The notes below the pieces were generated by a model, which worked only from the letters and a program-made list of their open reading frames with translations, was not told the DNA's origin and did not search any database. Positions 4,534 through 18,199 of a DNA stretch of 64,000 bases are shown here, piece after piece (position 1 is the first letter of the stretch; the number at the start of each line of letters is the position of its first letter). A program made the position numbers and the translations under genes. The DNA is from Burkholderiaceae bacterium (GTDB lineage Bacteria > Pseudomonadota > Gammaproteobacteria > Burkholderiales > Burkholderiaceae_C), in assembly GCA_041912595.1 (NCBI GenBank), contig JAYRMR010000013.1, positions 1 through 64,000 on the forward strand, in the 5' to 3' direction.

Positions 4534-4560
4534 GGCCCGGACCGGCGCTCAGGCGGTCAG

Positions 4561-4974
4561 TCAGGGCGCCAGGCGCGCCAGCTCCCGCTCCAGCGCGATG
4601 ACGTCCTGCCGCGCGCGCTGCAGGGCCTCGGCCGCTCCCGGCTCGCGGCCGGCCAGCTGCAGCGCGGCCAGGCGCGCGCGTTCTTGGTCGAGTTCCTGCT
4701 GAAGGATCTGGCGCCGCCCTTCGTCGTTGCTGCGGGACGGTACCGTGCTGACCGTTCGGACCACCCCCGCGGCAGACGCCGTCGCGATCTCGCCGCCGGG
4801 TGCGCGCGCCGCGACCGGGCAGGCCTTGCCGCCCGATCCCAGCCATTCCACGCCACCTTGCCGGCAGGACGCGCCCGTGGCGGCCTGCGCGCGCTCCAGG
4901 ATGACGCCGCCGGCCTGCACGTCCAGCGCGCAGGCCAGCACAGCGAGCCCCGTCAGGAGTCGCCCGCCGCGCAT
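4561..4974 (-). CDS. Hypothetical secreted protein with coiled-coil C-terminus
   Basis: Start taken at MRGGRLLTGLAVLACALDVQA (signal peptide). C-terminus is a heptad-like stretch QQELDQERARLAALQLAG…IALERELARL. Last gene of the divergent minus-strand trio next to the tad locus. Confidence 0.45.
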   Translation of the reverse strand: MRGGRLLTGLAVLACALDVQAGGVILERAQAATGASCRQGGVEWLGSGGKACPVAARAPGGEIATASAAGVVRTVSTVPSRSNDEGRRQILQQELDQERARLAALQLAGREPGAAEALQRARQDVIALERELARLAP

Positions 4975-4984
4975 GCGGTGCTCA

Positions 4985-5356
4985 TCAGCCGCCGCTACTG
5001 CTGCCATTGTTGACAGTCACCCGCGCCAGGCGCCCCATGTCGTCTTCCACGGTCACCACCATGCTGGTCATGCAGATGCCGCCCACGAAGTTGATCTGGA
5101 AGGCGTCACCACTGGCCGGCACCACCGAGCGACTAAAGGACAGGCCCACCGGCAAGGGATTGCTGACCCGGTAGGGCGGCGTGCCGCCAAACACATGCAC
5201 CTGCGGTCCGTTGCCGATATAGCAGCCACCGTCGCCCTTGGAGACGGTCACGGTGCTCATGGACACCTCGATCGAATCGGCCGGGCCGGACTCGTTGCCG
5301 CCACCGCCACAGCCGCTCAGCGCCAGCAGGGCCGCGGCACACCACATCATCTTCAT
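4985..5356 (-). CDS. Small lipoprotein
   Basis: MKMMWCAAALLALSGCGGGG has a lipobox LSGC. 123 aa, Gly/Ser rich. Confidence 0.5.
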   Translation of the reverse strand: MKMMWCAAALLALSGCGGGGNESGPADSIEVSMSTVTVSKGDGGCYIGNGPQVHVFGGTPPYRVSNPLPVGLSFSRSVVPASGDAFQINFVGGICMTSMVVTVEDDMGRLARVTVNNGSSSGG

Positions 5357-5388
5357 CAGGACTCCCTCTTCATTTTTCAAAAACGAAT

Positions 5389-6096
5389 TCACCGCTCGGC
5401 GCGGGTCTGCATCTCCACGATTGCGAAGCTCTCGATGGGCAGACGACCGCGAAGGTAGTAACGGACACATTCATCGGACGCGATCAGGTACTTGGACTCG
5501 AGCACACTCACGTTCCCGAAGGCATCCACACCCGAGTTGCCGCTGCACATGACACGTCGCAGCACACCGGCCATCAGGGGCACCTTGAGTTCATAGCCGT
5601 AGACAACGCGGATCTTCAGGAGGTTGGCATCCCGCAGACGCTGCTGCGAGGAGGCCCCGGGCTTGTCCAGCCGCCACTCCAGGTTGTCATTCGGGATGTA
5701 GGTCTTGCCGGTCGTGGGGTCCTTGACCCCGAAGTCATCGAAGGACTGGGCCGATGGATTCAGGCGTTCCAGCTTCACCGGATGCAGGACCTGATCGAGC
5801 TCCGTGTCCACCTTGGCCTTGGCCAGGCGCACGCTGTCGTTCGTCTCGAAGTTGTTTTGATAGAAGGGGCTGAGCGAGCGCAGCAGGGCGGTCTTCATGA
5901 CCCCTTCGTCCGCGTTGTGCAGGGAGCCCAGGCGCGCGGCCTGGAAGGTCGCGTGGTTGACCTGCAGCTTCGCCATGTAGATGAAGCCGGCCTGCACCAG
6001 GCCCAGCACGAACACGATGGCCACGGGCAGGACGATCACGAACTCGACCAGACCCAGGCCTCTGGGCGACCTGCCATGACGATGCCTGACGCGCAT
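5389..6096 (-). CDS. TadE/TadG-like pseudopilin (Flp pilus assembly)
   Basis: N-terminus MRVRHRHGRSPRGLGLVEFVIVLPVAIVFVLGLVQ matches the TadE-like motif. GGAGGAGG RBS precedes the ATG at 6096. Divergent from flp. Confidence 0.65.
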   Translation of the reverse strand: MRVRHRHGRSPRGLGLVEFVIVLPVAIVFVLGLVQAGFIYMAKLQVNHATFQAARLGSLHNADEGVMKTALLRSLSPFYQNNFETNDSVRLAKAKVDTELDQVLHPVKLERLNPSAQSFDDFGVKDPTTGKTYIPNDNLEWRLDKPGASSQQRLRDANLLKIRVVYGYELKVPLMAGVLRRVMCSGNSGVDAFGNVSVLESKYLIASDECVRYYLRGRLPIESFAIVEMQTRAER

Positions 6097-6474
6097 CTCG
6101 CGCCTCCTCCACTTGAACTCTGTTGATGGGCCCGCCGTACATGGGCGGACCTGCATGAATGCGGGGCGGCGAGCGCCTGTGCAGCCGGGAAGCCCCATGG
6201 AATGGGCCTTGCGGCGGGGCCGGGTCGGGCAGCTTCTCCCCTTTCGGCGGCGCGAGTCTGGCCGGCGTCCGTGACAACGTCAACAAATTCCGTGCATTTT
6301 TAACAATGCAACAGACGCCTTACCTTGACTTACAAACGACCAGCCTTTAGGGGGTGGTGCGCTGCAGCAAACATCGAATAACGTGCCGACCTGTGATGCG
6401 ATGGCCACTGAGTCTCGCGTCCAGACAGGGCCTCAGGAGGAGGCTCGCCATCCACACATCCATGCGAGGAAACC
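6097..6474. promoter_or_regulatory. Divergent promoter/5'-UTR region between tadE/G-like gene and flp pilin
   Basis: A 378-bp noncoding stretch with locally lower GC (TTTTTAACAATGCAACAGACGCCTTACCTTGACTTACAAAC contains a TTGACT -35-like hexamer). Implies a long flp leader. Confidence 0.4.
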
Positions 6475-6771
6475 ATGCTGCAAATGCAACAACGCGCCCT
6501 GAACAAGTCCAAGATCCGCGGTCAGGGCATGACCGAGTACATCATCATCGTGGCGCTGATCGCCATCGCCGCCATCGGCGTCTACAGCCTGTTCGGTGAC
6601 GTGGTGAAGAAGCAGACCGGCGCCATGGCCGCTGGCCTGGCGGGTGACAACGGCAATGCCGTGACCTGGAACGGCAAGGCCAAGGAGAAGACCGAGAACG
6701 AGAAGAAGAAGGTCGAGAACGTGAAGGGCCTGAACGACTTCACGAAGGACAACGACCTGGGTTCGAAGTAA
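6475..6771 (+). CDS. flp: Flp/Fap family type IVc pilin (Flp-1) with extended Lys/Glu-rich C-terminal tail
   Basis: IRGQGMTEYIIIVALIAIAAIGV fits the Flp prepilin motif G/XXXXEY followed by a hydrophobic helix. 98 aa against the typical 50–70. The tail reads KAKEKTENEKKKVENVKGLNDFTKDNDLGSK. Confidence 0.8.
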   Translation: MLQMQQRALNKSKIRGQGMTEYIIIVALIAIAAIGVYSLFGDVVKKQTGAMAAGLAGDNGNAVTWNGKAKEKTENEKKKVENVKGLNDFTKDNDLGSK

Positions 6772-6786
6772 GCACTCTGAGTGCAA

Positions 6787-6835
6787 GGGTGGGGCGCCTG
6801 CGCCTGCACCCTACACTTTGATCCCCACTTTCTTC
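6787..6835 (+). terminator. Putative intrinsic terminator/attenuator downstream of flp
   Basis: GC hairpin GGGTGGGGCGCC-TGCGCC-TGCACCC followed by a T-rich tract (TACACTTTGATCCCCACTTTCTTCT). Sits between flp and the next operon gene. Confidence 0.4.
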
Positions 6836-6845
6836 TACGCACACC

Positions 6846-7694
6846 ATGTCCTCGAGTTCTTCCCGTTTCTTGCTGTCCGCCCTTTGCCTGCTCTCACTGG
6901 CCTCGGCCCATGCGCTGGAGGTGACTCCGCCGCGTGGCTACCAGTTCAGCAAGCCGCCGGAAGTGAAGCAGCACGGGATCTACACGGTCTACATCCGGTG
7001 TGCGTCGAAGTTCTGCGGAAGCATCGCTACTGGCAAGACCGGTGACCTGGAACTGGAGGGCAAGACCTCCCGCTATACGGTCAACGCCATCAGCGACCAG
7101 AACGAGATGGACAGCCGCGCCATCAACAAGGAATACCTGGCGCTGGCCGCGAAAGCGGGTGGTGCACAGGTGGATGAAGGCAATTCGATCGGTCCGAACG
7201 TGTACCGCATCCCTCGTGCCAACGGCAAGGGCGCGGACTGGATCGTGATCGAGCACAACTACGGTCGCCGCTTCGAGATGACCGTCATCGAGGAAGCGGC
7301 CCAGGAACTGACGGCCACGATCACGGCCTCCCAGATGGGCCAGTCGATCGATGCCACCGGCAGCGTCGCGCTCTATATCGAGTTCGACACCGCCAAGGCC
7401 ACGATCAAGCCTGCGGGCGAGGCCACCGTGAAGGAGATCGCCGCGCTGCTCAAGAGCCAGCCGGCGCTGCGCCTCTCGGTGGAAGGCCACACGGACAACG
7501 TCGGCCAGGCCGCCGACAACAAGCGCCTCTCGCAGGCGCGCGCTGAAGCCGTCATGAAGGCCGTGGTCGCCCAGGGCATCGATGCCAAGCGACTCAAGGC
7601 CGTCGGCCAGGGGCAGGAGTACCCCATCGCCGACAACCGGACCGAGGAAGGCCGCGGCAAGAACCGCCGGGTCGAACTCGTCAAGATGAAGTGA
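6846..7694 (+). CDS. Periplasmic OmpA-family protein, paralog 3 (embedded in tad operon)
   Basis: Signal peptide MSSSSSRFLLSALCLLSLASAHA. Same N-domain as paralogs 1 and 2 (ADWLVLKDNFEGYY vs ADWIVIEHNYGRRF). C-terminal OmpA motif VEGHTDNVGQAADNKRLSQARAEAV…NRRVELVK. Confidence 0.85.
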   Translation: MSSSSSRFLLSALCLLSLASAHALEVTPPRGYQFSKPPEVKQHGIYTVYIRCASKFCGSIATGKTGDLELEGKTSRYTVNAISDQNEMDSRAINKEYLALAAKAGGAQVDEGNSIGPNVYRIPRANGKGADWIVIEHNYGRRFEMTVIEEAAQELTATITASQMGQSIDATGSVALYIEFDTAKATIKPAGEATVKEIAALLKSQPALRLSVEGHTDNVGQAADNKRLSQARAEAVMKAVVAQGIDAKRLKAVGQGQEYPIADNRTEEGRGKNRRVELVKMK

Positions 7695-7743
7695 AGCAGG
7701 GGCGGCACGAGCCCGCCCCCTGAACGAGAACGAGGGAGTCGCC

Positions 7744-9270
7744 ATGGTTTGCGAGATGGCCACCGTGCGTGGCCCGGGCAGCGCTTTGCCCAAACACCGC
7801 CGGCCGACCGGCGCCAAGCCCCAGCGGGGCCAGGCCATGATCTGGATGCTGGGCATGCTGGCAGCCAGTGGCGCGGTCATGTTCGCGCTGTTCAACACCT
7901 CGCAGACCACGGTGAGCAAGGAGCGCACCATCAATGCCGCCGATGCCGCGGCATTGGCAGGGGCGACGGCCGAGGCCCGCCTGCTCAACCTGATGGCCTA
8001 CAACAACCGCGCCATCATCGCCAACGAAGCCTTCCTGATCCAGTTGCTCAGCCTGGAGGGCTGGACGCAGTATGTGGGCAAGACCGCGAAGACGTTCGGC
8101 ACGATCCTGCACATCCTGAGCTTGATCCCGCCGATCTCGGCACCCGCCAATGCCGCTGCCACGGCGCTGGACAAGGCAAGCACCGCCGCAGACAAAGCCC
8201 ACGATGCGGTGAGCAGCGGGGCCACGCCCGTCGTCATCACGATGCTCGAGACAGCCAAGAGCGTCGCCAAGTTGTCTCATGGCGCCATCCGTGAAACCGG
8301 CAGCTTCCTGGCTGCCGACGCGGCACGCGCCATCGCCTCCGCCAACCGCACGGACTTCGGCGGACGCCACGACCCGGGCCAGAGCGTTCTGGAGACGCCC
8401 GCGATGATGGGCGTCACGCTGGGCATGAACCTCACGGACTGGCGCAACTTCACCAAGATCTACGAAGGCTCCGAACGCGGCGACGCCAAGCAGGTGCTGC
8501 TGGACTCGCGGGATGCCTTCACCACGAGCCGGCCCGGCCGCTCGTGGCTCAACTTCAAGTTCGATGTCATCCCCCTGGTGCGGCGCGTCGGCCTCGAGAA
8601 GAACGGCGGCTCCCAACTGGTCGGCTTCGACCGCTGGGAGACGCAGGACACCCTGGAGCTGCTGACCTGGACCAAACGGCGCCCGTGGAGCGGCTGGCGA
8701 CTGAATCCCAGCGACGGCCTCCCCCTCGGCTGGGGCCGCGCCACGGCGGATGACACCGAGAACAAGGGCAATGTCTGGTCGCCCTCCCGCCTGGCCCAGC
8801 GTCGGGCGCGCAACGACGGCGACGCGCACGGCGGCTGGTCCGGCGTGCCATCGCTCTACAACGTCGCGGACACCAGCGAGCCGGCCCGCGCTGGCCTGGG
8901 CGTGGACTTCCTCGTGGCCGTCGGACGCCCGCAGGGCAATGACATCACGACTACCTCGCTGAAGATGGGCAGCACGAGCACCAGCGTCCTGGGCGCGACG
9001 GACATGCCGCAGGCTCAGGATGCGGGCCGCCATACGGCATTCGCCAAGGCCCGCGTGAGCTTCGAGCGGCCCCAACGGGGACTTGCCGGTGACACCACCG
9101 CAGCGCCTCTGTGGCGTCGCGACACCGCGAAGGAATATGGCTCGCTCTACAGCCCTTACTGGCAGGCGCGCCTCGCCGACCTGACGGTGGGCGAGAAGAC
9201 GGCCATGCTGGCCGCCGTCGGACTGACGCCGGACTACCTCGTCTACACGCCGGGAGCGCAGTCCAAATGA
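7744..9270 (+). CDS. TadG-like Flp pilus assembly protein
   Basis: N-terminus …KPQRGQAMIWMLGMLAASGAVMFALFNTSQ matches the TadE/G-like N-terminal motif. 508 aa, no obvious vWA MIDAS motif. GAGGGAG RBS. Confidence 0.7.
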   Translation: MVCEMATVRGPGSALPKHRRPTGAKPQRGQAMIWMLGMLAASGAVMFALFNTSQTTVSKERTINAADAAALAGATAEARLLNLMAYNNRAIIANEAFLIQLLSLEGWTQYVGKTAKTFGTILHILSLIPPISAPANAAATALDKASTAADKAHDAVSSGATPVVITMLETAKSVAKLSHGAIRETGSFLAADAARAIASANRTDFGGRHDPGQSVLETPAMMGVTLGMNLTDWRNFTKIYEGSERGDAKQVLLDSRDAFTTSRPGRSWLNFKFDVIPLVRRVGLEKNGGSQLVGFDRWETQDTLELLTWTKRRPWSGWRLNPSDGLPLGWGRATADDTENKGNVWSPSRLAQRRARNDGDAHGGWSGVPSLYNVADTSEPARAGLGVDFLVAVGRPQGNDITTTSLKMGSTSTSVLGATDMPQAQDAGRHTAFAKARVSFERPQRGLAGDTTAAPLWRRDTAKEYGSLYSPYWQARLADLTVGEKTAMLAAVGLTPDYLVYTPGAQSK

Positions 9271-10268
9271 AGGCGTTCAGCCGCGGCACCGCCGCTCCGG
9301 CCGCAAGTCGTGAACTTGACGGCGTGTGCCCCATGAGTCCGCCCCCCCGGCGTAAGCGCTGGCCGTTCCCTGGCAGGTCCTTTGCTGCGGCCGCCCTGAT
9401 GGCCCTGTTGGCCGGCGGCCTGCATGCCGCAGGCCAGAAGGAGGGCCGTGTGCCGGCGGTCCGCGTCGTGACGGCCGGTCACGCGCCCGCGAGCCAGTTG
9501 CGGGATCAGCTCGAGCCCCTGCTCATGCTGTGTCGCAAGCAGCTGAACCTCCCGCCCGAACCCAGCGGCATGCCCAGCGACGCCGCGCTGGCGCGTGTCG
9601 CCAGCATCGAGACCGAGGTGCTGCTCGATGGCCCCCGCTATGCGAAGTACCAGACCACCCGCAATCTCCTGCCGGATGACAAGGACGGCTGCAAGGTGAA
9701 GGTGCTCCGGCAGTTCACGGTGGAGCTCGAGAGCAGTTGCGACCGGCGCTGGTCCGCCACGTCCGGTGGGCCTGGCTTCAAGGCCGCACCCATGAAAAGT
9801 AGCGAGCTCGTCTACACCCAGGACGCTGAGCAAGCCCGATCCTCGCCGTGCCAGGTCCGCGTGGAGCCCACGCCCGATCTGGTCGCCGCCTGGAAGAAGA
9901 CGTCCCGTCAGCCGGCTGGCCTGGGTGCCCAATGCCTGTGGAGCAACGAGCTCGGTCTGCACCTGGGCGGCAGCAAGGCATCGGCCCATCCCGACCCGCT
10001 CAGCGGCAGCTGCTATGCCGCGGACCTGCCGGACTACCCCTTCACCACCTATCAAGGCAACCGGCGCTCCGTGTCCCTGAAGTTCCGCATGGCACGACTG
10101 CCGGGAGACACCTTCCGGCCGCCGGGCATCGTGGCCGGCCTGCTCGACCAGGAACTGAAGGAATTCAGCATGGATGCCGCAATCCCGGAAGGCCGCTTCA
10201 GTCGCGCGCAGGCCGAGGCCTTCCTGAAGCAGCCCGCCATCGTTCCTCTTGCGGAGCCCAGCAAATGA
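9267..10268 (+). CDS. Hypothetical secreted Cys-containing protein (tad operon)
   Basis: ATGA overlap with the tadG stop. Signal-like segment RSFAAAALMALLAGGLHAAG. No recognisable domain. Alternative start at Met 9333. Confidence 0.5.
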   Translation: MKAFSRGTAAPAASRELDGVCPMSPPPRRKRWPFPGRSFAAAALMALLAGGLHAAGQKEGRVPAVRVVTAGHAPASQLRDQLEPLLMLCRKQLNLPPEPSGMPSDAALARVASIETEVLLDGPRYAKYQTTRNLLPDDKDGCKVKVLRQFTVELESSCDRRWSATSGGPGFKAAPMKSSELVYTQDAEQARSSPCQVRVEPTPDLVAAWKKTSRQPAGLGAQCLWSNELGLHLGGSKASAHPDPLSGSCYAADLPDYPFTTYQGNRRSVSLKFRMARLPGDTFRPPGIVAGLLDQELKEFSMDAAIPEGRFSRAQAEAFLKQPAIVPLAEPSK

Positions 10269-11083
10269 AGCACGCCCTGCCTCTCCCGGACGCCTGCACA
10301 CAGCGCACAGCCCCCGCCACGCGTCGTGCGAGGCAGCGTGGCCAGTCCATCTCCGAGTTCCTGGTGTCGCTGATCGCCCTGGTGCCGGTCTTTCTGGCCA
10401 TCACCTACCTGGGCCGCTATGCCGACCTGCACCAGCGGGCCACGCAGGCCAGCCGGTACGCCGCCTTCCAGCGCACCATGCAGCCGAACACCGCCATCCT
10501 GTCCGACGCGGATCTGCAGGACCAGATGCGCGCACGCTTCTTCCTGGCGCCCAAGGCCCTGCACGATGGCCGCATCCAGTCGGACGACTCCGTGGCAGGC
10601 ATCACCGATGCGAAGAAGTCCCCGGCCATCTGGAGCGACCTGAGCGGCAAGGCGCTGCTGGCCAAGCCGGGCGACGTCACCATGACCTGGGACAGCAAGG
10701 CCATGGGCAACAAATCGGTGGTCAGCGGTCTGGACAAGGCCTTCGGCCTCGTGGGCAAGGACTACACGCCGGGGCACCGCGCCATGGTTGAACTGACGCT
10801 GCTGAACCGTCTGGACCAGACGGAAGCCACGCCCAAGGCGCTGAAACTCGCGGCGGCGACGACCGCCCCCGGGGAGTCCCTCGTCGCCAAAGGCGGCGAC
10901 GGGACCGCCGATGCCGCCCGCCGGCTGGTCCCGGCGACCCTCATCCCGTCCGTTGTCGAATCAGTGCTGGGCTTTGTGATCTCGCTGTTCGAGCAGGATT
11001 CGCCGGACATCGGCTGCATCAAGGCAGACACCGTCCCCACGAATCGACTCAAAGGCGCCACACAGCAAGACGTGTGCCGCTGA
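10265..11083 (+). CDS. TadE-like pseudopilin
   Basis: ATGA-coupled start. RGQSISEFLVSLIALVPVFLAITYLG is the TadE-like domain. Confidence 0.7.
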   Translation: MKHALPLPDACTQRTAPATRRARQRGQSISEFLVSLIALVPVFLAITYLGRYADLHQRATQASRYAAFQRTMQPNTAILSDADLQDQMRARFFLAPKALHDGRIQSDDSVAGITDAKKSPAIWSDLSGKALLAKPGDVTMTWDSKAMGNKSVVSGLDKAFGLVGKDYTPGHRAMVELTLLNRLDQTEATPKALKLAAATTAPGESLVAKGGDGTADAARRLVPATLIPSVVESVLGFVISLFEQDSPDIGCIKADTVPTNRLKGATQQDVCR

Positions 11084-11781
11084 TCATGGCCCCCTATCTG
11101 TCTCCTCGGCTGCTGCCGCTCCTGCTGGGCATCGTCTGGGTGTCCGCGCAGGCCACCGACTGGCGATCGCTGGCGCTGCCGGATCGCACCCAGGGCGAAT
11201 GGGTGCTGGGCGAAGCCCGCGTCAACGGCGTCCCGATGCAGACCCAGCGGCTGACGTCACGGCTGACGGTCGAGCAACTGCTCGCGCATTTCGAGGACCA
11301 GTGGAAGCGCTGGGGTTCCGTGCGCCGCGCCACCACCGCGGGCTGGCAGACGCTCAGCGTCAACACGGGTCCGGTGCAACTGACCCTGCAGGCCAAGGCG
11401 GCCCAGGACGGTAGCGAGGGCATCCTGACCCAGGCGGCCTGGCCCGAGCGGCAGCGGGACTTCCTTCCCCCGGAACTCCCTGACCTGCCCCGCACCGACG
11501 CCCAGCAGGTCACCGAGTCCCGCGACGGCCCGCGCCGCAGCCGCCTCGTGCATCTGCTATCCCAGGACAACCTGGAACTCAACCGCCAGCGCTGGCAGGC
11601 CTATGCCCGCCGCAAGGGCTGGGCGCTGACCACCGAGAAGCTGCTCAAGCAGTCCGGGCAGCAGCACTGGCTGGCGAGCTTCACCAGCGGCGGCGCCCTG
11701 ACGCTGGACCTCGTCCTGTCCCAGTCCGACGCCGCTGCCAAAACCAGCATCACCGCCAACTTCCTGGACACCGTGCCATGA
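11074..11781 (+). CDS. Hypothetical secreted protein (tad operon)
   Basis: Signal peptide MPLIMAPYLSPRLLPLLLGIVWVSAQA. 235 aa with no recognisable domain. Overlaps its neighbours. Confidence 0.5.
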   Translation: MPLIMAPYLSPRLLPLLLGIVWVSAQATDWRSLALPDRTQGEWVLGEARVNGVPMQTQRLTSRLTVEQLLAHFEDQWKRWGSVRRATTAGWQTLSVNTGPVQLTLQAKAAQDGSEGILTQAAWPERQRDFLPPELPDLPRTDAQQVTESRDGPRRSRLVHLLSQDNLELNRQRWQAYARRKGWALTTEKLLKQSGQQHWLASFTSGGALTLDLVLSQSDAAAKTSITANFLDTVP

Positions 11782-11960
11782 CACCGATCCACCGCCGCCG
11801 CCAGCGCGGCCAGGCCACCCTCGAATACGCCATCGCCGCCAGCGCGCTGGTCATGGCGCTGTTCGTCGTCGAGTTCAGCGGCAAGACCGCCGCACAGTAC
11901 CTCGCAGAAGCCGTCCGCGTCTTCTACAAGAACCTCAGCTATTTCCTCTCCCTGCCCTGA
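11778..11960 (+). CDS. Second Flp-family pilin/minor pilin (Flp-2), 60 aa
   Basis: RRQRGQATLEYAIAASALVMALFVV carries a G/XXXXEY prepilin motif. ATGA-coupled to the upstream gene and sits immediately before cpaB. Confidence 0.55.
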   Translation: MTPIHRRRQRGQATLEYAIAASALVMALFVVEFSGKTAAQYLAEAVRVFYKNLSYFLSLP

Positions 11961-11962
11961 CC

Positions 11963-12847
11963 ATGGCCCTCTCCCTGAAAAAGATCAACAGCAACTGGCT
12001 GCTCCTCGGCGCCGCGATTCTCCTGGGCGGCGGCGCAGCCTATCTCGGGGGTGCCGCGCTGAAGCAGCGGATGCACGAGCTGGACGAGCAGGCCAATGCG
12101 GGCAAGGACATGGTCTCCGTCGTCGTCGCGCGGCGTGACATGCAGCGCGGCGAACCCGTCGAGCCCGACTCCTTCGCCGTGCGCAAGGTGCCCAGCGAGT
12201 ACCTCAACGCCGACGCGGTGAAGCCCGGCGACTTCGAGCCCTACGTGACGCAGCGCCTGATCGTCGGCCTCAAGCGCGGCGACGTCCTGCTGCCCGTGCA
12301 CACCGAGGGCAACGGGAACAAGGTGTTCTCGTCCACCCTGGGCGTCGGCAAGCGCGCCCTGACCTTCGAGGTGGACACCGTCAACTCCGTCTCCGGGATG
12401 CTGCGCCCGGGCGACCGCATCGACCTGCTCTACACCGCCAAGGGCCTGGACTCGGTCGATGTCACCCAGCCCCTGCTCTCCAACCTGGAGATCCTGGCCA
12501 CCGACCAGAACCAGACCCGCCGTGACGAGAACGGCAAGGAACGCAACTTCTCGACCATCACCATGGAGCTGTCGCCCCAGGACGCCCAGCGCGTGATCGT
12601 CGCCAAGCAGGCTGGCCGCCTGACCGCCCTGCTCCGCCACCCGGACGACAAGGCCGCCAACCCGAGCGGCGCCATGGACCCCACCGTGCTGCTGAGCGGT
12701 CGCGTGCGTCGCGCCAACGGCGAGCGCCAGGGCATCGAGTACCTGGTCGGCGGAGGCGGCGGCCCGGCTGACATCAAGACCCAGCTCAGCCGCCTGGCGC
12801 TGAGCGGCGAGCTCGGCGCTCCCGCCGCGGCCCCTGCCAAGCCCTGA
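11963..12847 (+). CDS. cpaB: Flp pilus assembly protein CpaB/RcpC
   Basis: 294 aa. N-terminal TM helix, then SAF-like β domains (VVVARRDMQRGEPV…, RPGDRIDLLYT). Position matches the canonical tad order. Confidence 0.85.
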   Translation: MALSLKKINSNWLLLGAAILLGGGAAYLGGAALKQRMHELDEQANAGKDMVSVVVARRDMQRGEPVEPDSFAVRKVPSEYLNADAVKPGDFEPYVTQRLIVGLKRGDVLLPVHTEGNGNKVFSSTLGVGKRALTFEVDTVNSVSGMLRPGDRIDLLYTAKGLDSVDVTQPLLSNLEILATDQNQTRRDENGKERNFSTITMELSPQDAQRVIVAKQAGRLTALLRHPDDKAANPSGAMDPTVLLSGRVRRANGERQGIEYLVGGGGGPADIKTQLSRLALSGELGAPAAAPAKP

Positions 12848-12855
12848 TCGCCGCC

Positions 12856-14376
12856 ATGTCCATCGCATTCAATCTCACGTTCCCCATGTCCTCGACTCCT
12901 ACCCTCGGTCTGGCGCGTCCGCTCGTCCTGCTCGCCTGTCTCACGCTCTGCGCCACGGCCCATGCCGACCCGGCCGGCGACACCCCCGCGGCCGGCCCCG
13001 GCGCGGGCCGCGGCGCGGTGAACCCCGCGGCCGTGCAGTCCACGCTGATCGAGACGGCCAAGCCGGCCCGCGGTGCGGCCAAGCCCGCCCCGGGCCCGGT
13101 CGCCATCGAGTCCGGCCCCACCCGGACCCTGGCCGTGGGCGACGTCTCCACGATCAACCTGCCCGGCGTCGTGCGCATCGCCATCGGCAATGGCGGCCTG
13201 CTGAAGGCCACCGTGGTCGATGACCGCGAGATCGTGCTGATCGCCGAACAGTCCGGCCGCACGACCATGCATGTCTGGCTGAAGAACGGTCGGCAGCTGA
13301 GCTACGAGATCGAGGTGCTGGCCTCGCGCCCCAACCGCGTGCTGGACGAACTCCAGGGCCTGTTGAAGGAGACGCCGGGCCTCACTGCCCGCGTGGTGGG
13401 CGAGCGCGTCGTGATCGAGGGCCGCTACCAGGACAGCACCGTCGCCCAGCGCATCAAGCGCCTGGCGAGCAACTTCCCGCAGATCCTCAACCTCGTGCCT
13501 GACCGCCCGGTGGACGCCGACCCCCTGCAGCTCGAACGCATGGTGCAGATCGACCTGCGCGTGATCGAGGTGAAGAAGCGCGCGCTGGACCAGCTGGGCA
13601 TCAAGTGGGCCAGCGGTGCCGCAGGCCCCACCTTCGCCACCAACGCCCTCGTGTACAGCAACACCCCGTGGCGTCCGGAGACGACCAACGGCTACCCGCC
13701 CGTCAACACCAGCAACCCGATCTACAGCTACCTCGGCATGGCGACGCAGATCACCAGTGCCCTGCGCTTCCTCGAGACCCGCGGCGAAGCCTGGACCCTG
13801 GCCGAACCGCGCCTGAGCTGCCGCAGCGGCGGCGAGGCCAACTTCCTGGCCGGTGGCGAGATTCCCATCCCCGTCGGCCAGGGCAATGGCGCGATCGGCG
13901 TGATCTACAAGCAGTACGGCGTGCGCATCGAGTTCAAGCCCCAGGCCGATGGCCACGGCAACATCGACTCCGGTCTGATGGTCGAGGTGAGCGAGCCCGA
14001 CGGCCGCAACTCCAACGCCGGCTTCATCGCCTTCACGACGAACCGCACCGACACGCAGGTCGCCATGAAGGAAGGGGAACCGCTGGTGATCTCGGGCCTG
14101 CTGCGCCAGCGCACCGAGCGCAGCACCGACGCCGTGCCGGGCCTGGGCCGCATCCCCATCATCAGCAATCTGTTCAAGTCGCGCGACCACACGAACGAGC
14201 AGACCGAGCTCATCGTGATCGCCACGCCGCGCATCATCACGCCCGACTCCGCCCTCACCCGCCTGAGCGTCGACAAGGCCGCCAGCCTGGCGGAGCAGGT
14301 CAACGAACGCGTGACGAGCAAGCTCAAGCCCGAGTCCGGCAGCAACGGCGCCGAGTCGGGCCAGGAGGCACGCTGA
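12856..14376 (+). CDS. cpaC: Flp pilus secretin CpaC/RcpA
   Basis: 506 aa. BON-like N-domain, then secretin C-domain (…ISGLLRQRTERSTDAVPGLGRIPIISNLFKSRDHTNEQTELIVIATPRII). Confidence 0.9.
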   Translation: MSIAFNLTFPMSSTPTLGLARPLVLLACLTLCATAHADPAGDTPAAGPGAGRGAVNPAAVQSTLIETAKPARGAAKPAPGPVAIESGPTRTLAVGDVSTINLPGVVRIAIGNGGLLKATVVDDREIVLIAEQSGRTTMHVWLKNGRQLSYEIEVLASRPNRVLDELQGLLKETPGLTARVVGERVVIEGRYQDSTVAQRIKRLASNFPQILNLVPDRPVDADPLQLERMVQIDLRVIEVKKRALDQLGIKWASGAAGPTFATNALVYSNTPWRPETTNGYPPVNTSNPIYSYLGMATQITSALRFLETRGEAWTLAEPRLSCRSGGEANFLAGGEIPIPVGQGNGAIGVIYKQYGVRIEFKPQADGHGNIDSGLMVEVSEPDGRNSNAGFIAFTTNRTDTQVAMKEGEPLVISGLLRQRTERSTDAVPGLGRIPIISNLFKSRDHTNEQTELIVIATPRIITPDSALTRLSVDKAASLAEQVNERVTSKLKPESGSNGAESGQEAR

Positions 14377-16133
14377 TGCTGCACATCCAGATCGAGGGCC
14401 GTGACGGCCTGCAGCAGCTGGCCAGCACCCGCTGCATCGTCGGCAAGGACAGCGAGTGCGACCTCGTGCTGTCCGGCTGGAAGGTCAGCCGGCGGCATGC
14501 CGAGCTGTTCGTGTCGAACGAGCGCGTCTATGTGCGCGACCTGGACTCCAGCTTCGGCACGTGGCTGGGCGAGCAGCGCGTGGGAGACACGATGCCCGTG
14601 CCCACGGGCGCCACGCTGCGCATCGGCGGCCACAGCATCCGCGCGCACTGGGCCCGCCAGGACGCCGAGGCCACGGCCCCCGCGCCCGCGCCCGCGGGCT
14701 CCACGCCTCAGGCCGGCGCCGCGGCGGGCATCGAGCTCCGCCCGCCGAACGCGGCCACCCCGCCTGCAGCCGCACCGGCCGCGGCGTCGCCCGTGATGGC
14801 CCCCGCCACGGCCCCGGTGGCCCCGACCGAGGCCACCGATGTCAGCTTCAAGTACCGCCGCCTGCTGCATGAGCGCCTGCTCGAGTCCTTCGACCTGCGC
14901 CGCACCGACACGCACCGCATGGCGGACGACGAGCTGCAGGAGCTCACCGAGAAGCTGATCTCCGAGCAGATCGACAAGCTGGGCAAGGAGCTGCCCGCCG
15001 GCATCGACAAGCGCGCGCTGCTCGAGCAGGTCCGTGACGAGGCCATCGGCCTGGGCCCGCTGGAGCCGCTGCTGGCGGATCCGTCCATCACCGAAATCAT
15101 GGTGAACAAGGCGGACGAGGTCTTCGTCGAGCAGGGCGGCCAGCTGACGCGCTGGCCCGTGGCCTTCACCAGCGACCGCGCGGTGCAGGGCATCATCGAG
15201 CGCATCGTCGCGCCCATCGGCCGGCGCATCGACGAAAGCTCGCCGATGGTGGACGCCCGCCTGAAGGACGGCTCGCGCGTGAACGCCGTGATCCCGCCGC
15301 TGGCGCTGAAGGGCCCGTCCATCACGATCCGGAAGTTCTCCAAGCGCAAGCTCAACTCCGACGACCTGCTGCGCTTCGGCTCCGCGAGCCCAGCCATGAT
15401 CGAGTTCCTGAAGGTCTGCGTGGAGCACCACCGCAACATGCTGATCTCCGGCGGTACGGGTTCGGGCAAGACGACCTTGCTGAACATCATGTCGAACTTC
15501 ATCCCCGAGGGCGACCGCATCGTCACCATCGAGGATGCGGCCGAGCTGCAGCTGCACCACCCGAACGTGGTCTCGCTGGAAGCCCGCCCGGCCAATATCG
15601 AGGGCAAGGGCCTGGTCGCCATCCGCGACCTCGTGAAGAACTCGCTGCGGATGCGCCCGGACCGCATCGTGGTCGGTGAATGCCGGGGCGGCGAGGCCCT
15701 GGACATGCTGCAGGCCATGAACACGGGCCACGACGGCTCGCTCACCACCGCCCACGCCAACAGCCCGCGCGACATGCTCGCCCGTCTGGAGGTGATGGTG
15801 CTGATGGCCGGCATGGACCTGCCCGTGACGGCCATCCGCGAGCAGATCGCCTCCGCGGTGCAGATCGTCGTGCAGCAGACCCGCTTCGCCTGCGGCACCC
15901 GCAAGGTCACCAGCATCACCGAGGTCACCGGCGTCGAAAGCGGCAAGATCCAGCTGCAGGAGATCTTCGGCTTCGTGCAGACCGGCCGGGACGCCCGCGG
16001 CAAGACGCAGGGCTACTTCACCGGGCGGGGCTTCGTTCCCGAGTTCTATGAGGAGCTGGCGGCCATCGGCATTCCGCTGCGCATGGACATCTTCGACGAG
16101 ACCCCGCCGGAGCAGCGGGGAGCCCGCGCATGA
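14376..16133 (+). CDS. cpaF: CpaF/TadA pilus ATPase with N-terminal FHA domain and Pro/Ala-rich linker
   Basis: Start overlaps the cpaC stop by 1 nt. Residues 1–100 form an FHA domain (GRDGLQ…CDLVL…VSRRHAEL…YVRDLDSSFGTWLGEQRV). The linker is APAPAPAGSTPQAGAAAG…APTEATD. The ATPase has Walker A GGTGSGKTT, Walker B/Asp box and His box. Confidence 0.9.
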   Translation: MLHIQIEGRDGLQQLASTRCIVGKDSECDLVLSGWKVSRRHAELFVSNERVYVRDLDSSFGTWLGEQRVGDTMPVPTGATLRIGGHSIRAHWARQDAEATAPAPAPAGSTPQAGAAAGIELRPPNAATPPAAAPAAASPVMAPATAPVAPTEATDVSFKYRRLLHERLLESFDLRRTDTHRMADDELQELTEKLISEQIDKLGKELPAGIDKRALLEQVRDEAIGLGPLEPLLADPSITEIMVNKADEVFVEQGGQLTRWPVAFTSDRAVQGIIERIVAPIGRRIDESSPMVDARLKDGSRVNAVIPPLALKGPSITIRKFSKRKLNSDDLLRFGSASPAMIEFLKVCVEHHRNMLISGGTGSGKTTLLNIMSNFIPEGDRIVTIEDAAELQLHHPNVVSLEARPANIEGKGLVAIRDLVKNSLRMRPDRIVVGECRGGEALDMLQAMNTGHDGSLTTAHANSPRDMLARLEVMVLMAGMDLPVTAIREQIASAVQIVVQQTRFACGTRKVTSITEVTGVESGKIQLQEIFGFVQTGRDARGKTQGYFTGRGFVPEFYEELAAIGIPLRMDIFDETPPEQRGARA

Positions 16134-16972
16134 CGTCCCAGCTGCTCCTGGTCGGGCTGATGCTCTTCGGCGCGACGGCCGTGCTGCTCCTGCTGGCGCG
16201 GCGCGCGCTGCTGAGCTGGCAGGCGCGCTTCACCGAGACGGCCAAGGTGTCGCTGGAGGACATGTTCGTCTTCATCGACCCGGGCTCGCTCTTCAAGCTG
16301 AACCTGGCGCTGTTCATCCTGGTGCCGCTGCTGCTGTGGGTCTTCACGGGCTCGCCCGTGCTGGCCGTGCTGGGCGGCCTGGGCGGCGCCATCCTGCCGC
16401 GCGCCAGCTGGATCATCCTGCGCCGCCGGCGCATGGCGCTGCTGGTCGAGCAGCTGCCGGACGGCCTCACCATGATGGCCGGCGCCATGCGCGCCGGTGC
16501 CAGCCTGCAGATCGCGCTGGACCTCGTGGTCAAGGAGTCGCCGGCGCCGCTGTCCCAGGAGTTCTCGGTCCTGCTGCGCGAGCAGCGCCTGGGCCTGGCC
16601 CTGGAGGACTCGCTGCGCGGCCTCTCGCAGCGCCTCAAGCAGGAGGACATCGACCTCTTCGTCTCGGCGCTCACCATCGCCAAGGAAGTCGGCGGCAATC
16701 TGTCCGAGATCCTGGAGCGGCTGTCCTCCACGCTGCGCGCCAAGGCCGTCATGGAGGGCAAGATCAAGGCCCTCACCTCGCAGGGCAAGCTGCAGGGCAT
16801 CGTCGTGGGCATGCTGCCGGTCCTGCTGGCCGGCGTGCTCTATGCCATGGACCCGCGGGCCATGACGCCCTTGTTCACCACCATCTACGGCTGGGGCACC
16901 ATGAGCGTGATCTTCATCCTGATCACCATGGGCGCCTTCTTCATCAAGAAGATCGTCACGATCGACGTCTGA
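16130..16972 (+). CDS. tadB: Flp pilus assembly membrane protein TadB
   Basis: 280 aa polytopic protein with a T2SS-F domain (…LSQRLKQEDIDLFVSALTIAKEVGGNLSEILERLS…). Confidence 0.85.
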   Translation: MTSQLLLVGLMLFGATAVLLLLARRALLSWQARFTETAKVSLEDMFVFIDPGSLFKLNLALFILVPLLLWVFTGSPVLAVLGGLGGAILPRASWIILRRRRMALLVEQLPDGLTMMAGAMRAGASLQIALDLVVKESPAPLSQEFSVLLREQRLGLALEDSLRGLSQRLKQEDIDLFVSALTIAKEVGGNLSEILERLSSTLRAKAVMEGKIKALTSQGKLQGIVVGMLPVLLAGVLYAMDPRAMTPLFTTIYGWGTMSVIFILITMGAFFIKKIVTIDV

Positions 16973-16975
16973 ACC

Positions 16976-17842
16976 ATGTCCATGGTCTATCTCTTCGCCG
17001 CCTTCTCGGGCCTGGCCACGCTGCTGCTGATCTATGCGGTGTATCGCCTCTACACCGAGCTGGGCAGCGCCAACACGCAGTACCGCGACAAGCCGCCGCG
17101 CGGCTTCCAGTACGTCTGGCCGCTGATCAACATCCTGGCCAACAGCTTCGGCTTCCTCATCAGCGAGGGGCGGGTGCAGGCCTGCCTGCTGAGGCTGCGC
17201 CGCGCCGGCCAGGACTACGCCCTGACCCCGCACCAGTTCTACGCCGGGAAGTGGGTCGCCGCACTCGGCTTTGCCGGCGTCGGCGTCGTCCTCGCGGGCA
17301 AGGGCGGCGGCACCATGGGCGCGCTGCTCGGCGCGCTACTGGGCTTCCACTACCCCGACATCTGGCTGCGCGACCACACCAAGATCCGCAACCTCGCGCT
17401 GCTCAAGGCCCTGCCCTTCTTCCTGGACATCGTCACGCTGTCCGTCGAGTCCGGCCTCAACCTCACCGGCGCCCTGCAGAAGGCCGTGGACCGCTGCCCG
17501 CCCGGGCCGCTGATGGTGGAGGTCAACCGCGTGCTGCGCGAGATCCGCGGCGGCAAGCCCCGGATCGAGGCCCTGCGCGCGTTGGCCGACCGCCTGGACT
17601 ACGCGCCCATCTCCAGCCTCGTCAGTGCGCTGATCCAGGGCGAGCTCATGGGCTCGAGCCTCGGCCCCATCCTGCGCGCACAGAGCGACCAGCGCCGCAC
17701 CGAGCGCTTCCTGCGGGCCGAGAAGCTCGCCATGGAAGCCCCCGTGAAGATGCTGGGCCCGCTGATCATGTTCATCTTTCCCTGCACCTTCATCGTCCTG
17801 GGCTTCCCCATCGTCATGAAGTTCATGCAGTCGGGGATCTGA
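16976..17842 (+). CDS. tadC: Flp pilus assembly membrane protein TadC
   Basis: 288 aa, second T2SS-F-like platform protein (ALPFFLDIVTLSVESGLNLTGALQK…). Confidence 0.85.
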   Translation: MSMVYLFAAFSGLATLLLIYAVYRLYTELGSANTQYRDKPPRGFQYVWPLINILANSFGFLISEGRVQACLLRLRRAGQDYALTPHQFYAGKWVAALGFAGVGVVLAGKGGGTMGALLGALLGFHYPDIWLRDHTKIRNLALLKALPFFLDIVTLSVESGLNLTGALQKAVDRCPPGPLMVEVNRVLREIRGGKPRIEALRALADRLDYAPISSLVSALIQGELMGSSLGPILRAQSDQRRTERFLRAEKLAMEAPVKMLGPLIMFIFPCTFIVLGFPIVMKFMQSGI

Positions 17843-18199
17843 ATGGGCTGGCCGCAAGCCCGCCTGCATCTGCAGGGCATCGCCACCCATGTGCGGATCG
17901 GCCTCGCGCTGCGCTGGTGGGAGCGCGCCCGCGGCCTGCTGTTCCACGGGCAGCTGCAGGACGCCCCCGCCGGGCTGTGGATCGCGCCGTGCAACAGCGT
18001 GCACATGCTCGGCATGCGCCAGGCGCTGGACATCGTCTACCTCGACCGCGACGGCGTGATCCTCAAGTGCGTGCCGACGCTGCGCCCCTGGCGCCTGAGC
18101 GCCTGCCCGGGCGCGCATGTGGCGCTCGAGCTGCGCACCGGGCTGATCGCGGAGCTCGGCCTCAAGCCGGGCCTGCGGCTCCAGGCGCGCGGCGGCTAG
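17843..18199 (+). CDS. DUF192 domain protein (tad-associated)
   Basis: 118 aa (…WIAPCNSVHMLGMRQALDIVYLDRDGVI…) immediately after tadC. Confidence 0.65.
   Translation: MGWPQARLHLQGIATHVRIGLALRWWERARGLLFHGQLQDAPAGLWIAPCNSVHMLGMRQALDIVYLDRDGVILKCVPTLRPWRLSACPGAHVALELRTGLIAELGLKPGLRLQARGG

What the first reader, a model, noticed from the sequence alone, without database searches (positions are those of the whole stretch)
4561..18199. Atypical Tad/Flp pilus locus: no TadZ/CpaE, TadD or prepilin peptidase, with extra uncharacterised components
The plus-strand operon (6475–18199) encodes the core machinery: Flp pilin, TadG-like and TadE-like pseudopilins, CpaB, the CpaC secretin, the CpaF ATPase, and the TadB/TadC platform proteins. 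Three accessory genes that are near-universal in described tad loci are not recognisable: the ParA/MinD-like TadZ/CpaE, the TPR lipoprotein TadD, and the TadV/CpaA prepilin peptidase. In their place the locus carries other genes. The ATPase is fused to an FHA domain. An OmpA-domain protein follows the pilin directly. Two secreted proteins of unknown function (9267–10268, 11074–11781) and a second Flp-like pilin sit between the pseudopilin genes and cpaB. A divergent trio (TadE/G-like 5389–6096, lipoprotein 4985–5356, secreted coiled-coil protein 4561–4974) lies upstream. Eight consecutive gene junctions are ATGA or 1-nt overlaps, indicating tight translational coupling.
Basis: partly seen in the sequence, partly recalled or inferred. 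Interest (0 to 1): 0.75.

Follow-up and report, generated by a model that had tools for sequence, protein, structure and literature searches.

The report
Tad pilus locus lacking TadZ
This is an intact adhesion-pilus (Tad/Flp) gene cluster of a conserved but apparently undescribed subtype that has none of the usual positioning ATPase, pilotin or prepilin peptidase genes, and instead carries an FHA-fused motor, a DUF192 protein and a swappable four-gene "tip" cassette.

Summary
Window 4561-18199 holds a complete Tad/type IVc machine: Flp, TadG, two TadE, CpaB, CpaC, FHA-CpaF, TadB and TadC. No TadZ/CpaE, TadD, CpaD/RcpB or A24 peptidase was found in the locus, in the 64-kb window, or in 10 kb beyond either end.

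It is not a one-off. The same gene order occurs in 58 species-representative genomes (Roseateles, Ideonella, Pelomonas, other Burkholderiales, Steroidobacteraceae) and on a Moraxella bovis plasmid. None of these has TadZ or TadV within 10 kb.

Core genes are under purifying selection (pN/pS 0.03-0.19). TadG-g7-TadE-g9 is a 3.9-kb hypervariable cassette: 36-61% protein identity against 96-99% in the flanks in the closest named relative.

Five proteins keep the G/XXXXE(Y/F) prepilin motif, so a peptidase must act in trans. The FHA fusion ("class III CpaF") was noted in 2025. I found no description of this locus type.

Best reading: a conserved TadZ-independent Tad variant.

Corrections: only 5 of 10 junctions overlap; cpaF starts at 14376; two further OmpA paralogues lie upstream.

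The parts
2825..3667 (+). OmpA-domain paralogue 1. Secreted; its N-terminal domain resembles that of the in-operon OmpA.
   Evidence: PF00691, 2e-22. Start at 2825 inferred from the signal peptide and from the 280-aa gene call in relatives.
3664..4533 (+). OmpA-domain paralogue 2.
   Evidence: PF00691, 2e-24. 41-48% identical to the in-operon OmpA of relatives.
4561..4974 (-). g1: secreted protein with a conserved C.xGxVEW motif and a C-terminal coiled coil. Last gene of the divergent trio.
   Evidence: No Pfam or NCBIfam hit. Conserved in 19 loci. Not TPR-like (HHalign 0.3%).
4985..5356 (-). g2: small lipoprotein with a conserved lipobox and CGGGGNESGP.
   Evidence: No family hit. Conserved in 26 loci. 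Not RcpB-like (HHalign 7.8%).
5389..6096 (-). Divergently transcribed TadE-like pseudopilin, motif PRG|LGLVEF.
   Evidence: PF07811, 4e-11. Present in about 50 related loci.
6475..6771 (+). Long Flp-type prepilin. Motif IRG|QGMTEY; mature length about 82 aa, with a variable hydrophilic tail.
   Evidence: Motif read from the sequence. PF04964 weak, E = 0.06. N-terminus GQGMTEYIIIVAL is near-invariant in 62 homologues.
6846..7694 (+). In-operon OmpA-domain (peptidoglycan-binding) protein.
   Evidence: PF00691, 6e-25. Conserved at this position in the Sphaerotilaceae-type clade.
7744..9270 (+). TadG-like large pseudopilin. The body after its N-terminal helix begins the variable cassette.
   Evidence: PF13400, 6e-7. 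61% identity to R. subflavus against 96-99% in the flanks.
9267..10268 (+). g7: secreted protein of unknown fold with six invariant cysteines. Specific to this clade.
   Evidence: No family hit. 13 homologues found. AF2 model poor, pLDDT 40. Invariant Cys listed.
10265..11083 (+). TadE-like pseudopilin of 272 aa, motif RG|QSISEF.
   Evidence: PF07811, 9e-5, just above the cut-off. Conserved in 51 loci.
11086..11781 (+). g9: periplasmic protein with tandem Mog1/PsbP/DcrB-like domains. Relatives carry PF27226.
11778..11960 (+). g10: second, short Flp-type prepilin. Motif RG|QATLEY; conserved C-terminus FF(L/I)SLP.
   Evidence: HHalign to the Flp family 97.6%, E = 3e-12. Present in 46 loci.
11963..12847 (+). 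CpaB/RcpC.
   Evidence: PF16976, 3e-25. TIGR03177 at 147 bits, above its cut-off.
12856..14376 (+). CpaC/RcpA secretin.
   Evidence: PF00263, 7e-34, and PF13629, 2e-12.
14376..16133 (+). FHA-fused CpaF/TadA ATPase ("class III"). FHA at residues about 22-85, an Ala/Pro-rich linker, then the T2SSE core.
   Evidence: PF00498, 2e-16, and PF00437, 1e-65. Identical 585-aa protein P0001. Start codon checked.
16130..16972 (+). TadB platform protein.
   Evidence: PF00482, 4e-17.
16976..17842 (+). TadC platform protein.
   Evidence: PF00482, 2e-15. Subtype-specific conserved blocks shown.
17843..18199 (+). DUF192 protein without a signal peptide. Terminal gene of the operon.
   Evidence: PF02643, 4e-15. 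PDB 3M7A, 7e-5. At this position in 46 related loci.
7900..11800 (.). Hypervariable cassette: TadG body, g7, TadE and g9.
   Evidence: Nucleotide identity to R. subflavus is 38-67% here and at least 93% on both sides. pS is 0.48-0.69 here and 0.06-0.17 in the plus-strand flanks.

Best explanation
The locus encodes a working member of a conserved, distinct lineage of Tad (type IVc) pilus machines. I call it the FHA-CpaF/DUF192 type.

**Shown**
- All core parts are present and intact: two Flp-type prepilins, TadG, two TadE, CpaB, the CpaC secretin, the CpaF ATPase, TadB and TadC. Core genes are under purifying selection.
- cpaC overlaps cpaF by 1 nt. The canonical cpaD and cpaE (tadZ) genes that normally sit between them are absent.
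- No TadZ, TadD, CpaD or TadV is found within about 84 kb here, or within 10 kb of any of 58 related loci.
- An N-terminal FHA domain on the ATPase is universal in this lineage. A cytoplasmic DUF192 after tadC is present in nearly all complete copies.

**Inferred**
- Flp, g10, TadG and both TadE proteins keep a prepilin cleavage motif. They must therefore be processed by an A24 peptidase encoded elsewhere.
- The docking and positioning role of TadZ is taken over by the FHA domain of CpaF, possibly together with DUF192. Assembly would then be driven by protein-protein or signal-dependent recruitment rather than by a ParA-like polar hub.
- The OmpA-domain proteins anchor the envelope-spanning part to peptidoglycan.
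- The g2 lipoprotein and g1 act as outer-membrane or secretin helpers in place of TadD and RcpB.
- TadG-g7-TadE-g9 is one exchangeable module. It most likely forms the priming or tip complex that determines what the pilus binds. g9 would be a periplasmic chaperone-like partner.
For: **Domain assignments:**

**Absences:**

**Conserved synteny**
- Five loci fetched through FHA-CpaF homologues.
- 58 genome loci plus their presence/absence matrix.
- Every CpaF sequence in these loci (59, some truncated) and the Moraxella plasmid ATPase carry FHA.

**Purifying selection on the core:** pN/pS 0.03-0.19.

**Hypervariable cassette:** sharp borders and elevated pS.

**Pilin-like features**
- Prepilin motifs read from the sequence.
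- g10 matches Flp at 97.6%.

**g9 fold:**

**Literature**
- TadZ is treated as part of even the minimal Tad machinery and as the recruitment hub (PMC11300603, PMC6668835).
- CpaE is required for any machine density in Caulobacter (PMC12637624).
- FHA-CpaF is recognised as class III, mostly in betaproteobacteria (PMC12019362).
- The FHA-fused KilF of Myxococcus assembles at non-polar contact sites, and prepilin peptidases can act promiscuously in trans (PMC8460266).

**Sister clade:** a Hanks-type kinase is adjacent in 8 distinct loci, and a double-FHA protein in two of them.
Against: - No experiment exists for any member.
- Whole genomes could not be scanned. A trans-encoded TadZ, TadD or TadV is not excluded, and TadV is in fact required.
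- The FHA domain lacks part of the canonical phosphothreonine-binding set. In this clade Arg is replaced by Lys and Asn by Phe; other clades lose the Ser and the Asn. Phospho-dependent control is therefore doubtful, and no kinase is near this locus.
- The roles given to DUF192, g1, g2, g7, g9 and OmpA rest on position, conservation and fold only.
- g7 could not be modelled.
- The 58-locus count comes from two strict peptide patterns. It is a lower bound with unknown sampling bias.
Confidence: 0.7

Rival explanations
1. It is a split but otherwise canonical Tad system. TadZ, TadD/RcpB and TadV are all encoded at a second site and work with this operon as usual, so nothing is mechanistically different.
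For: - Prepilin motifs prove that at least the peptidase acts in trans.
- Whole genomes were not searchable here.
Against: - The absence is conserved in all 58 related loci and in a self-contained Moraxella plasmid copy.
- cpaC and cpaF overlap by 1 nt exactly where cpaD and cpaE normally sit.
- Loss of TadZ coincides in every case with gain of FHA, and in nearly every complete copy with DUF192.
- A canonical Burkholderia locus keeps tadV and tadZ in cis.
Confidence: 0.2
2. It is a Kil-like contact-dependent killing or protein-delivery apparatus rather than an adhesive pilus. A Tad-derived machine with an FHA-ATPase would assemble on contact and deliver toxins.
For: - The FHA-fused ATPase and lack of TadZ parallel Myxococcus KilF (PMC8460266).
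- The Moraxella bovis plasmid copy is followed, 18 nt downstream on the same strand, by an Rhs toxin with a Sec signal and an orphan-CT/immunity array. It is preceded by a DUF2235 (Tle1-like) protein.
- Swappable cassettes are common in systems that recognise other cells.
Against: - No toxin, immunity or Rhs gene lies next to this locus or next to any of the 58 genome loci.
- TadG is present here, whereas Kil lacks it.
- Kil-like systems were reported to be restricted to delta-proteobacteria (PMC8460266).
- The link rests on a single plasmid.
Confidence: 0.08
3. It is a decaying or silent remnant that lost essential genes and no longer builds a pilus.
For: Genes considered essential in model systems (tadZ/cpaE, tadV, cpaD) are missing in cis.
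Against: - All 16 ORFs are intact with tight junctions.
- The core has pN/pS of 0.03-0.19.
- The same gene order is kept across beta- and gammaproteobacteria, at 37-96% CpaB identity in all but one of the 58 loci.
Confidence: 0.02

Closest known systems
Canonical Tad/Flp (type IVc) pilus systems: A. actinomycetemcomitans tad, C. crescentus cpa, P. aeruginosa flp-rcp-tad, and Burkholderia plasmid loci (L006, L065)
   Same: - Flp-type prepilins with G/XXXXEY.
- TadE and TadG pseudopilins.
- CpaB/RcpC.
- A secretin with the pilus N-terminal domain.
- A CpaF/TadA ATPase.
- A split TadB and TadC platform.
- One main operon.
   Different: - No TadZ/CpaE, CpaD/RcpB, TadD/CpaO or TadV/CpaA in cis.
- The ATPase carries an FHA domain.
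- DUF192 is the terminal gene.
- The major pilin is about 82 aa mature instead of 45-60 aa.
- Pseudopilin genes lie upstream of cpaB, not downstream of tadC.
- Extra g7, g9, OmpA, g1 and g2 genes.
- A hypervariable cassette.
Class III CpaF orthologues (FHA-IDR-3HB-NTD-CAD), e.g. Achromobacter xylosoxidans E3HIW0 (PMC12019362)
   Same: The same domain order in the ATPase, and the same mainly betaproteobacterial distribution.
   Different: That paper classifies the ATPase only. It does not describe the accompanying gene set or the absence of TadZ. I could not check whether the Achromobacter locus has this architecture.
Myxococcus xanthus Kil Tad-like system (PMC8460266)
   Same: - An FHA-fused hexameric ATPase.
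- TadD and RcpB missing.
- Many genes of unknown function.
- Non-polar assembly on demand.
   Different: - Kil has its own prepilin peptidase (KilA), lacks TadG, is split in two clusters and carries several FHA proteins.
- It is reported only in delta-proteobacteria and kills prey.
- Here TadG is present, and this locus has no extra FHA protein, kinase or toxin.
FHA modules of other envelope machines: T3SS SctD/YscD cytoplasmic domain; T6SS Fha1/TagH with PpkA
   Same: An FHA-fold domain at the cytoplasmic face of a trans-envelope machine. Pfam also matches Yop-YscD_cpl (1e-11). A sister clade has an adjacent Hanks kinase.
   Different: Here the FHA is fused to the motor ATPase itself. The canonical pThr-contact residues are incomplete.

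Membership tests
Tad / type IVc pilus system | CpaF/TadA-type secretion ATPase | tested here: met
   PF00437, 1e-65. 52% identical to Burkholderia CpaF.
Tad / type IVc pilus system | Platform split into two single-domain proteins, TadB and TadC | tested here: met
   Two adjacent PF00482 proteins of 280 and 288 aa.
Tad / type IVc pilus system | CpaB/RcpC plus a secretin with the T2SS-T3SS_pil_N domain | tested here: met
   TIGR03177 above its cut-off. PF00263 and PF13629.
Tad / type IVc pilus system | Flp-family pilin with a G/XXXXEY processing motif | tested here: inconclusive
   The motif is present in two ORFs. PF04964 reaches only E = 0.06, below its cut-off. The mature length of about 82 aa is atypical.
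Tad / type IVc pilus system | TadE/TadF/TadG pseudopilins | tested here: met
   PF07811 twice and PF13400 once.
Tad / type IVc pilus system | TadZ/CpaE ParA-like ATPase encoded with the system | tested here: not met
   No ParA-like protein in the window or 10 kb beyond it. A TadZ HMM gives only noise in 58 loci. The rest of the genome was not testable.
Tad / type IVc pilus system | Dedicated A24 prepilin peptidase TadV/CpaA | tested here: not met
   No PF01478 hit. The A24 HMM gives no hit at E <= 10. A trans-encoded enzyme is required by the motifs but could not be searched for.
Tad / type IVc pilus system | TadD/CpaO TPR pilotin and RcpB/CpaD lipoprotein | tested here: not met
   No TPR lipoprotein or CpaD domain. 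g1 is not TPR-like and g2 is not RcpB-like. A small TPR protein does occur at this position in sister clades.
Class III CpaF | N-terminal FHA domain, disordered linker, then the CpaF core | tested here: met
   FHA at residues 22-85, an Ala/Pro-rich stretch at about 95-185, T2SSE at 226-512.
Canonical phosphothreonine-binding FHA domain | Conserved Gly-Arg, Ser-x-x-His and Asn-Gly contact residues | tested here: not met
   This clade has GK, SRRH and SSFGT. Other clades have S to A/G and N to G/A. The fold matches, but the full binding set does not.
Myxococcus Kil system | FHA-ATPase with several FHA proteins, its own peptidase, no TadG, and a predatory delta-proteobacterial host | tested here: not met
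   Only the FHA-ATPase is shared. TadG is present. The window has no other FHA protein or kinase. The host is a Burkholderiales bacterium.

The most novel reading that the evidence does not exclude
This lineage would be a TadZ-independent Tad machine. The FHA domain fused to the motor, together with cytoplasmic DUF192, would replace the ParA-like hub, so the machine could assemble wherever a signal or partner recruits the ATPase. The swappable TadG-g7-TadE-g9 cassette would be a specificity-determining tip complex. In some carriers, such as the Moraxella bovis plasmid, the machine would have been co-opted to present or export an Rhs toxin.
Probability: 0.3. Interest if true: 0.75.

Novelty: new variant of a known kind. 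Interest (0 to 1): 0.55.

Why it matters
TadZ/CpaE is treated as an indispensable organiser of Tad pili and as a marker in detection models. A conserved lineage that does without it says two things:
1. The motor can be docked in another way.
2. Genome surveys that require tadZ may under-count Tad systems.

The lineage offers a natural experiment for what the FHA extension of class III CpaF does. It also gives DUF192, a widespread family with a solved structure but no function, a testable context.

The sharply bounded hypervariable cassette points to which proteins face the outside world. It also places two unknown proteins, g7 and g9, with the pseudopilins. That bears on the open question of what sits at the tip of a Tad pilus.

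Tried and rejected
- **Exact look-up of the 586-aa CpaF failed.** The true start is one codon later; the 585-aa form was found.
- **Structure prediction with my own 23-sequence g9 alignment was refused.** It was redone with database homologues.
- **The g7 model was unusable** (pLDDT 40), so no fold search was run on it.
- **The g9 profile has no sequence match in the PDB**.
- **The afdb50 fold library was unavailable**.
- **g1 as a degenerate TadD/TPR protein: rejected** (HHalign 0.3%).
- **g2 as RcpB-like: rejected** (HHalign 7.8%).
- **The LNT-like gene at 55663-58125 as the orthologue of the locus-linked LNT of relatives: rejected.** It shares only about 29% identity, over the hydrolase domain alone.
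- **Promoter and terminator scan of 4400-7800:** nothing above the shuffled expectation.
- **PLSDB search:** no place covers at least 80% of the FHA-CpaF query at the tblastn level. The Moraxella plasmid ATPase nevertheless does carry an FHA domain.
- **Rhs, patatin and kinase seeds** found no toxin next to any genome locus. Kinases appear only in one sister clade.
- **Literature searches** for FHA with TadZ, for DUF192 with Tad, and for TadZ-less Tad systems returned no description of this architecture.

Full report
**1. What is there**

The window has about 70% G+C, so genes were called by third-position GC and then checked by profile searches.

A plus-strand operon runs from 6475 to 18199:
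- a 98-aa Flp-like prepilin, 6475-6771;
- an OmpA-domain protein, 6846-7694;
- a 508-aa TadG-like protein, 7744-9270;
- an unknown secreted protein g7, 9267-10268;
- a 272-aa TadE-like protein, 10265-11083;
- an unknown secreted protein g9, 11086-11781;
- a 60-aa pilin-like protein g10, 11778-11960;
- CpaB, 11963-12847;
- the CpaC secretin, 12856-14376;
- an FHA-fused CpaF ATPase, 14376-16133;
- TadB, 16130-16972;
- TadC, 16976-17842;
- a DUF192 protein, 17843-18199.

A divergent trio lies upstream on the minus strand: a TadE-like protein (5389-6096), a lipoprotein g2 (4985-5356) and a secreted coiled-coil protein g1 (4561-4974). Two further OmpA paralogues sit at 2825-3667 and 3664-4533.

Five products carry a prepilin motif:

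| Product | Motif |
|---|---|
| Flp | IRG\|QGMTEY |
| g10 | RG\|QATLEY |
| TadE | RG\|QSISEF |
| Divergent TadE | RG\|LGLVEF |
| TadG | RG\|QAMIW |

These were read from the sequence. An HHalign comparison puts g10 with the Flp family at 97.6% probability.

**2. Check of the observation**

- From TadG to DUF192 there are four ATGA overlaps, one single-base TGATG overlap and five gaps of 0-8 nt. These are not eight consecutive overlaps.
- cpaF starts at ATG 14376. This matches an identical 585-aa database protein.

The absences hold.
- Pfam scans of every plausible gene in the 64-kb window found no Peptidase_A24, no ParA/CpaE-like ATPase, no TPR lipoprotein, no CpaD, and no Ser/Thr kinase or further FHA protein.
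- I built HMMs for A24 and TadZ from three canonical tad loci taken from annotated plasmids. They gave no A24 hit at E <= 10 and only receiver-domain noise for TadZ, in all six-frame ORFs of the window and of 58 related loci.
- Contigs of the same species that extend 10 kb beyond each end of the window are also negative.

**3. It is a lineage, not an accident**

Homologues of the FHA-CpaF are abundant. All 120 best hits have at least 64% identity, and all but three carry precomputed FHA and T2SSE domains. Their neighbourhoods show the same gene order in Ideonella, an unnamed Burkholderiales bacterium, a Steroidobacteraceae MAG and another proteobacterial MAG.

A scan of one genome per species, using two CpaB peptide patterns specific to this type, returned 58 loci. 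The closest are Roseateles subflavus APW6 (96% CpaB identity) and a Burkholderiaceae MAG (95%). The source is therefore a Roseateles-like member of the Burkholderiales.

A presence/absence matrix shows an invariant core: long Flp, TadG, TadE, g10, CpaB, CpaC, CpaF, TadB, TadC and DUF192. g9 belongs with this core in two of the three clades.

| Clade | Loci | Distinguishing features |
|---|---|---|
| Sphaerotilaceae-type | window, L007-L030 | Adds OmpA and g7. Has the divergent unit g1-g2-TadE. Outside the R. subflavus group an Lnt-like acyltransferase follows this unit. |
| Steroidobacteraceae-rich | L031-L048 | Has TPR plus TadE upstream. A Hanks kinase lies downstream in 8 distinct loci, with a double-FHA protein in two of them. 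|
| Third clade, and a Moraxella bovis plasmid | L049-L063; L066 | Places TadE after DUF192. |

Every CpaF sequence in these loci (59, some truncated) and the Moraxella ATPase carry the FHA domain. None of the loci has TadZ or an A24 peptidase within 10 kb.

**4. It is functional**

Against R. subflavus, the core genes have pN/pS of 0.03-0.19. Protein identity is 96-99% for Flp, CpaB, CpaC, CpaF, TadB and TadC, and 95% for DUF192.

**5. A hypervariable cassette**

In the same comparison, nucleotide identity falls from at least 93% to 38-67% between about 7900 and 11800, with sharp borders. This stretch covers the TadG body, g7, TadE and g9.

Protein identities there are 61, 36, 58 and 50%. Synonymous divergence is 0.48-0.69, against 0.06-0.17 in the plus-strand flanks. 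So this is allelic replacement, not only fast evolution in place.

A second MAG (L007) carries the window-type allele and an extra g7 copy. The four genes behave as one exchangeable unit. I read this as evidence that g7 and g9 work with the pseudopilins, probably in the exposed priming or tip complex.

**6. The unknown proteins**

- **g7** has six invariant cysteines but could not be modelled.
- **g1** is not TPR-like, and **g2** is not RcpB-like.
- **DUF192** here has no signal peptide. It keeps the motif PC...H..GMR...D. Its only solved relative is the uncharacterised 3M7A.

**7. The FHA domain**

Pfam matches both FHA (2e-16) and the T3SS YscD cytoplasmic domain (1e-11).

The canonical phosphothreonine-contact set is incomplete. 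This clade has Gly-Lys instead of Gly-Arg and Phe in place of the Asn. Other clades lose the Ser and the Asn. The domain may therefore act as a phospho-independent docking module. The kinase linkage in one sister clade keeps a signalling role possible.

**8. Mechanism proposed**

Shown:
- a complete Tad core without TadZ, CpaD, TadD or TadV in cis;
- cpaC overlapping cpaF where cpaD and cpaE normally lie;
- FHA in every related locus and DUF192 in nearly every complete one.

Inferred:
- the prepilins are cut by a peptidase encoded elsewhere;
- FHA, perhaps with DUF192, docks the motor to TadB and TadC in place of TadZ;
- OmpA proteins tie the machine to peptidoglycan;
- TadG-g7-TadE-g9 sets binding specificity.

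Supporting literature:
- TadZ is considered part of the minimal machinery and the recruiting hub (PMC11300603, PMC6668835).
- No machine density forms without CpaE in Caulobacter (PMC12637624).
- The only studied FHA-fused Tad ATPase, Myxococcus KilF, assembles at non-polar contact sites. Its pilins may be processed by a foreign peptidase (PMC8460266).

**9. Comparison and novelty**

The FHA-CpaF fusion is already on record as "class III CpaF, mostly betaproteobacteria" (PMC12019362). I found no paper describing the accompanying gene set, the loss of TadZ, the DUF192 link or the cassette. The searchable library excludes most subscription journals.

The system fails the TadZ and TadV membership features of the canonical Tad definition but meets all the others. 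It is not a Kil system. I rate it a new variant of a known kind.

**10. Limits**

- No whole genome could be scanned.
- The 58-locus count is a lower bound from strict patterns.
- All functional roles beyond the domain assignments are inference.

Noticed in passing
window 7900-11800: The TadG body, g7, TadE and g9 form a sharply bounded hypervariable cassette. Nucleotide identity to Roseateles subflavus is 38-67% here and at least 93% in the flanks. Synonymous divergence is several-fold higher than in the flanks, which indicates allelic replacement by recombination.
   Followed up: yes
L012-L030, e.g. L002:384-2240(-); window 55663-58125(-): In Ideonella, Pelomonas and related genomes, an Lnt-like acyltransferase (LNT_N + CN_hydrolase, 535-635 aa) sits between the divergent TadE gene and flp. 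It is absent from that position in the window and its closest relatives. The distant Lnt-like gene in the window is only about 29% identical and is not its orthologue.
   Followed up: partly
L004:13880-17621, L005:11875-13658, and L031, L033, L040, L042, L045, L046: In the Steroidobacteraceae-rich sister clade a Hanks-type Ser/Thr kinase directly follows DUF192 on the opposite strand. A double-FHA protein accompanies it in two of these loci, and one locus also has a cNMP-patatin protein. No kinase is near the window locus.
   Followed up: partly
L066 (Moraxella bovis plasmid NZ_CP087831.1) 4000-20853: The plasmid carries the same Tad subtype, with an identical Flp RGQGMTEY motif, an FHA-ATPase and DUF192. 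An Rhs core protein with a Sec signal follows 18 nt downstream, together with an array of orphan C-terminal and immunity-like genes. A DUF2235 (Tle1-like) protein precedes the locus.
   Followed up: partly
window 14376-14680 (FHA of CpaF): The FHA domain lacks part of the canonical phosphothreonine-contact residues (Arg to Lys, Asn to Phe). Pfam also matches the phospho-independent T3SS YscD cytoplasmic domain.
   Followed up: partly
window 2825-4533 and 6846-7694: Three paralogous OmpA-domain proteins share a similar unknown N-terminal domain. The number of upstream copies varies between close relatives from 0 to 2.
   Followed up: partly
L007 (MAG SZ_szas3bin.22): This MAG has the window-type cassette allele and a second, 46%-identical copy of g7 in tandem.
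   Followed up: no
window 19311-21172: A LytS-type histidine kinase and a LytTR response regulator lie about 1 kb downstream of the operon, after a convergent panE-like gene. No link to the pilus locus was tested.
   Followed up: no
window 31325-33877(-), 52391-56308(-); L068:2014-4143: Several c-di-GMP turnover proteins surround the locus: a GAF-PAS-GGDEF protein, a Reg_prop/Y_Y_Y-GGDEF protein, and a PAS-GGDEF-EAL protein just upstream of the window. No link was tested.
   Followed up: no
window 23338-25947: A large secreted protein of 869 aa carries FG-GAP, Big_5 and dockerin-like repeats. It is possibly an adhesin and lies 5 kb downstream of the pilus operon.
   Followed up: no
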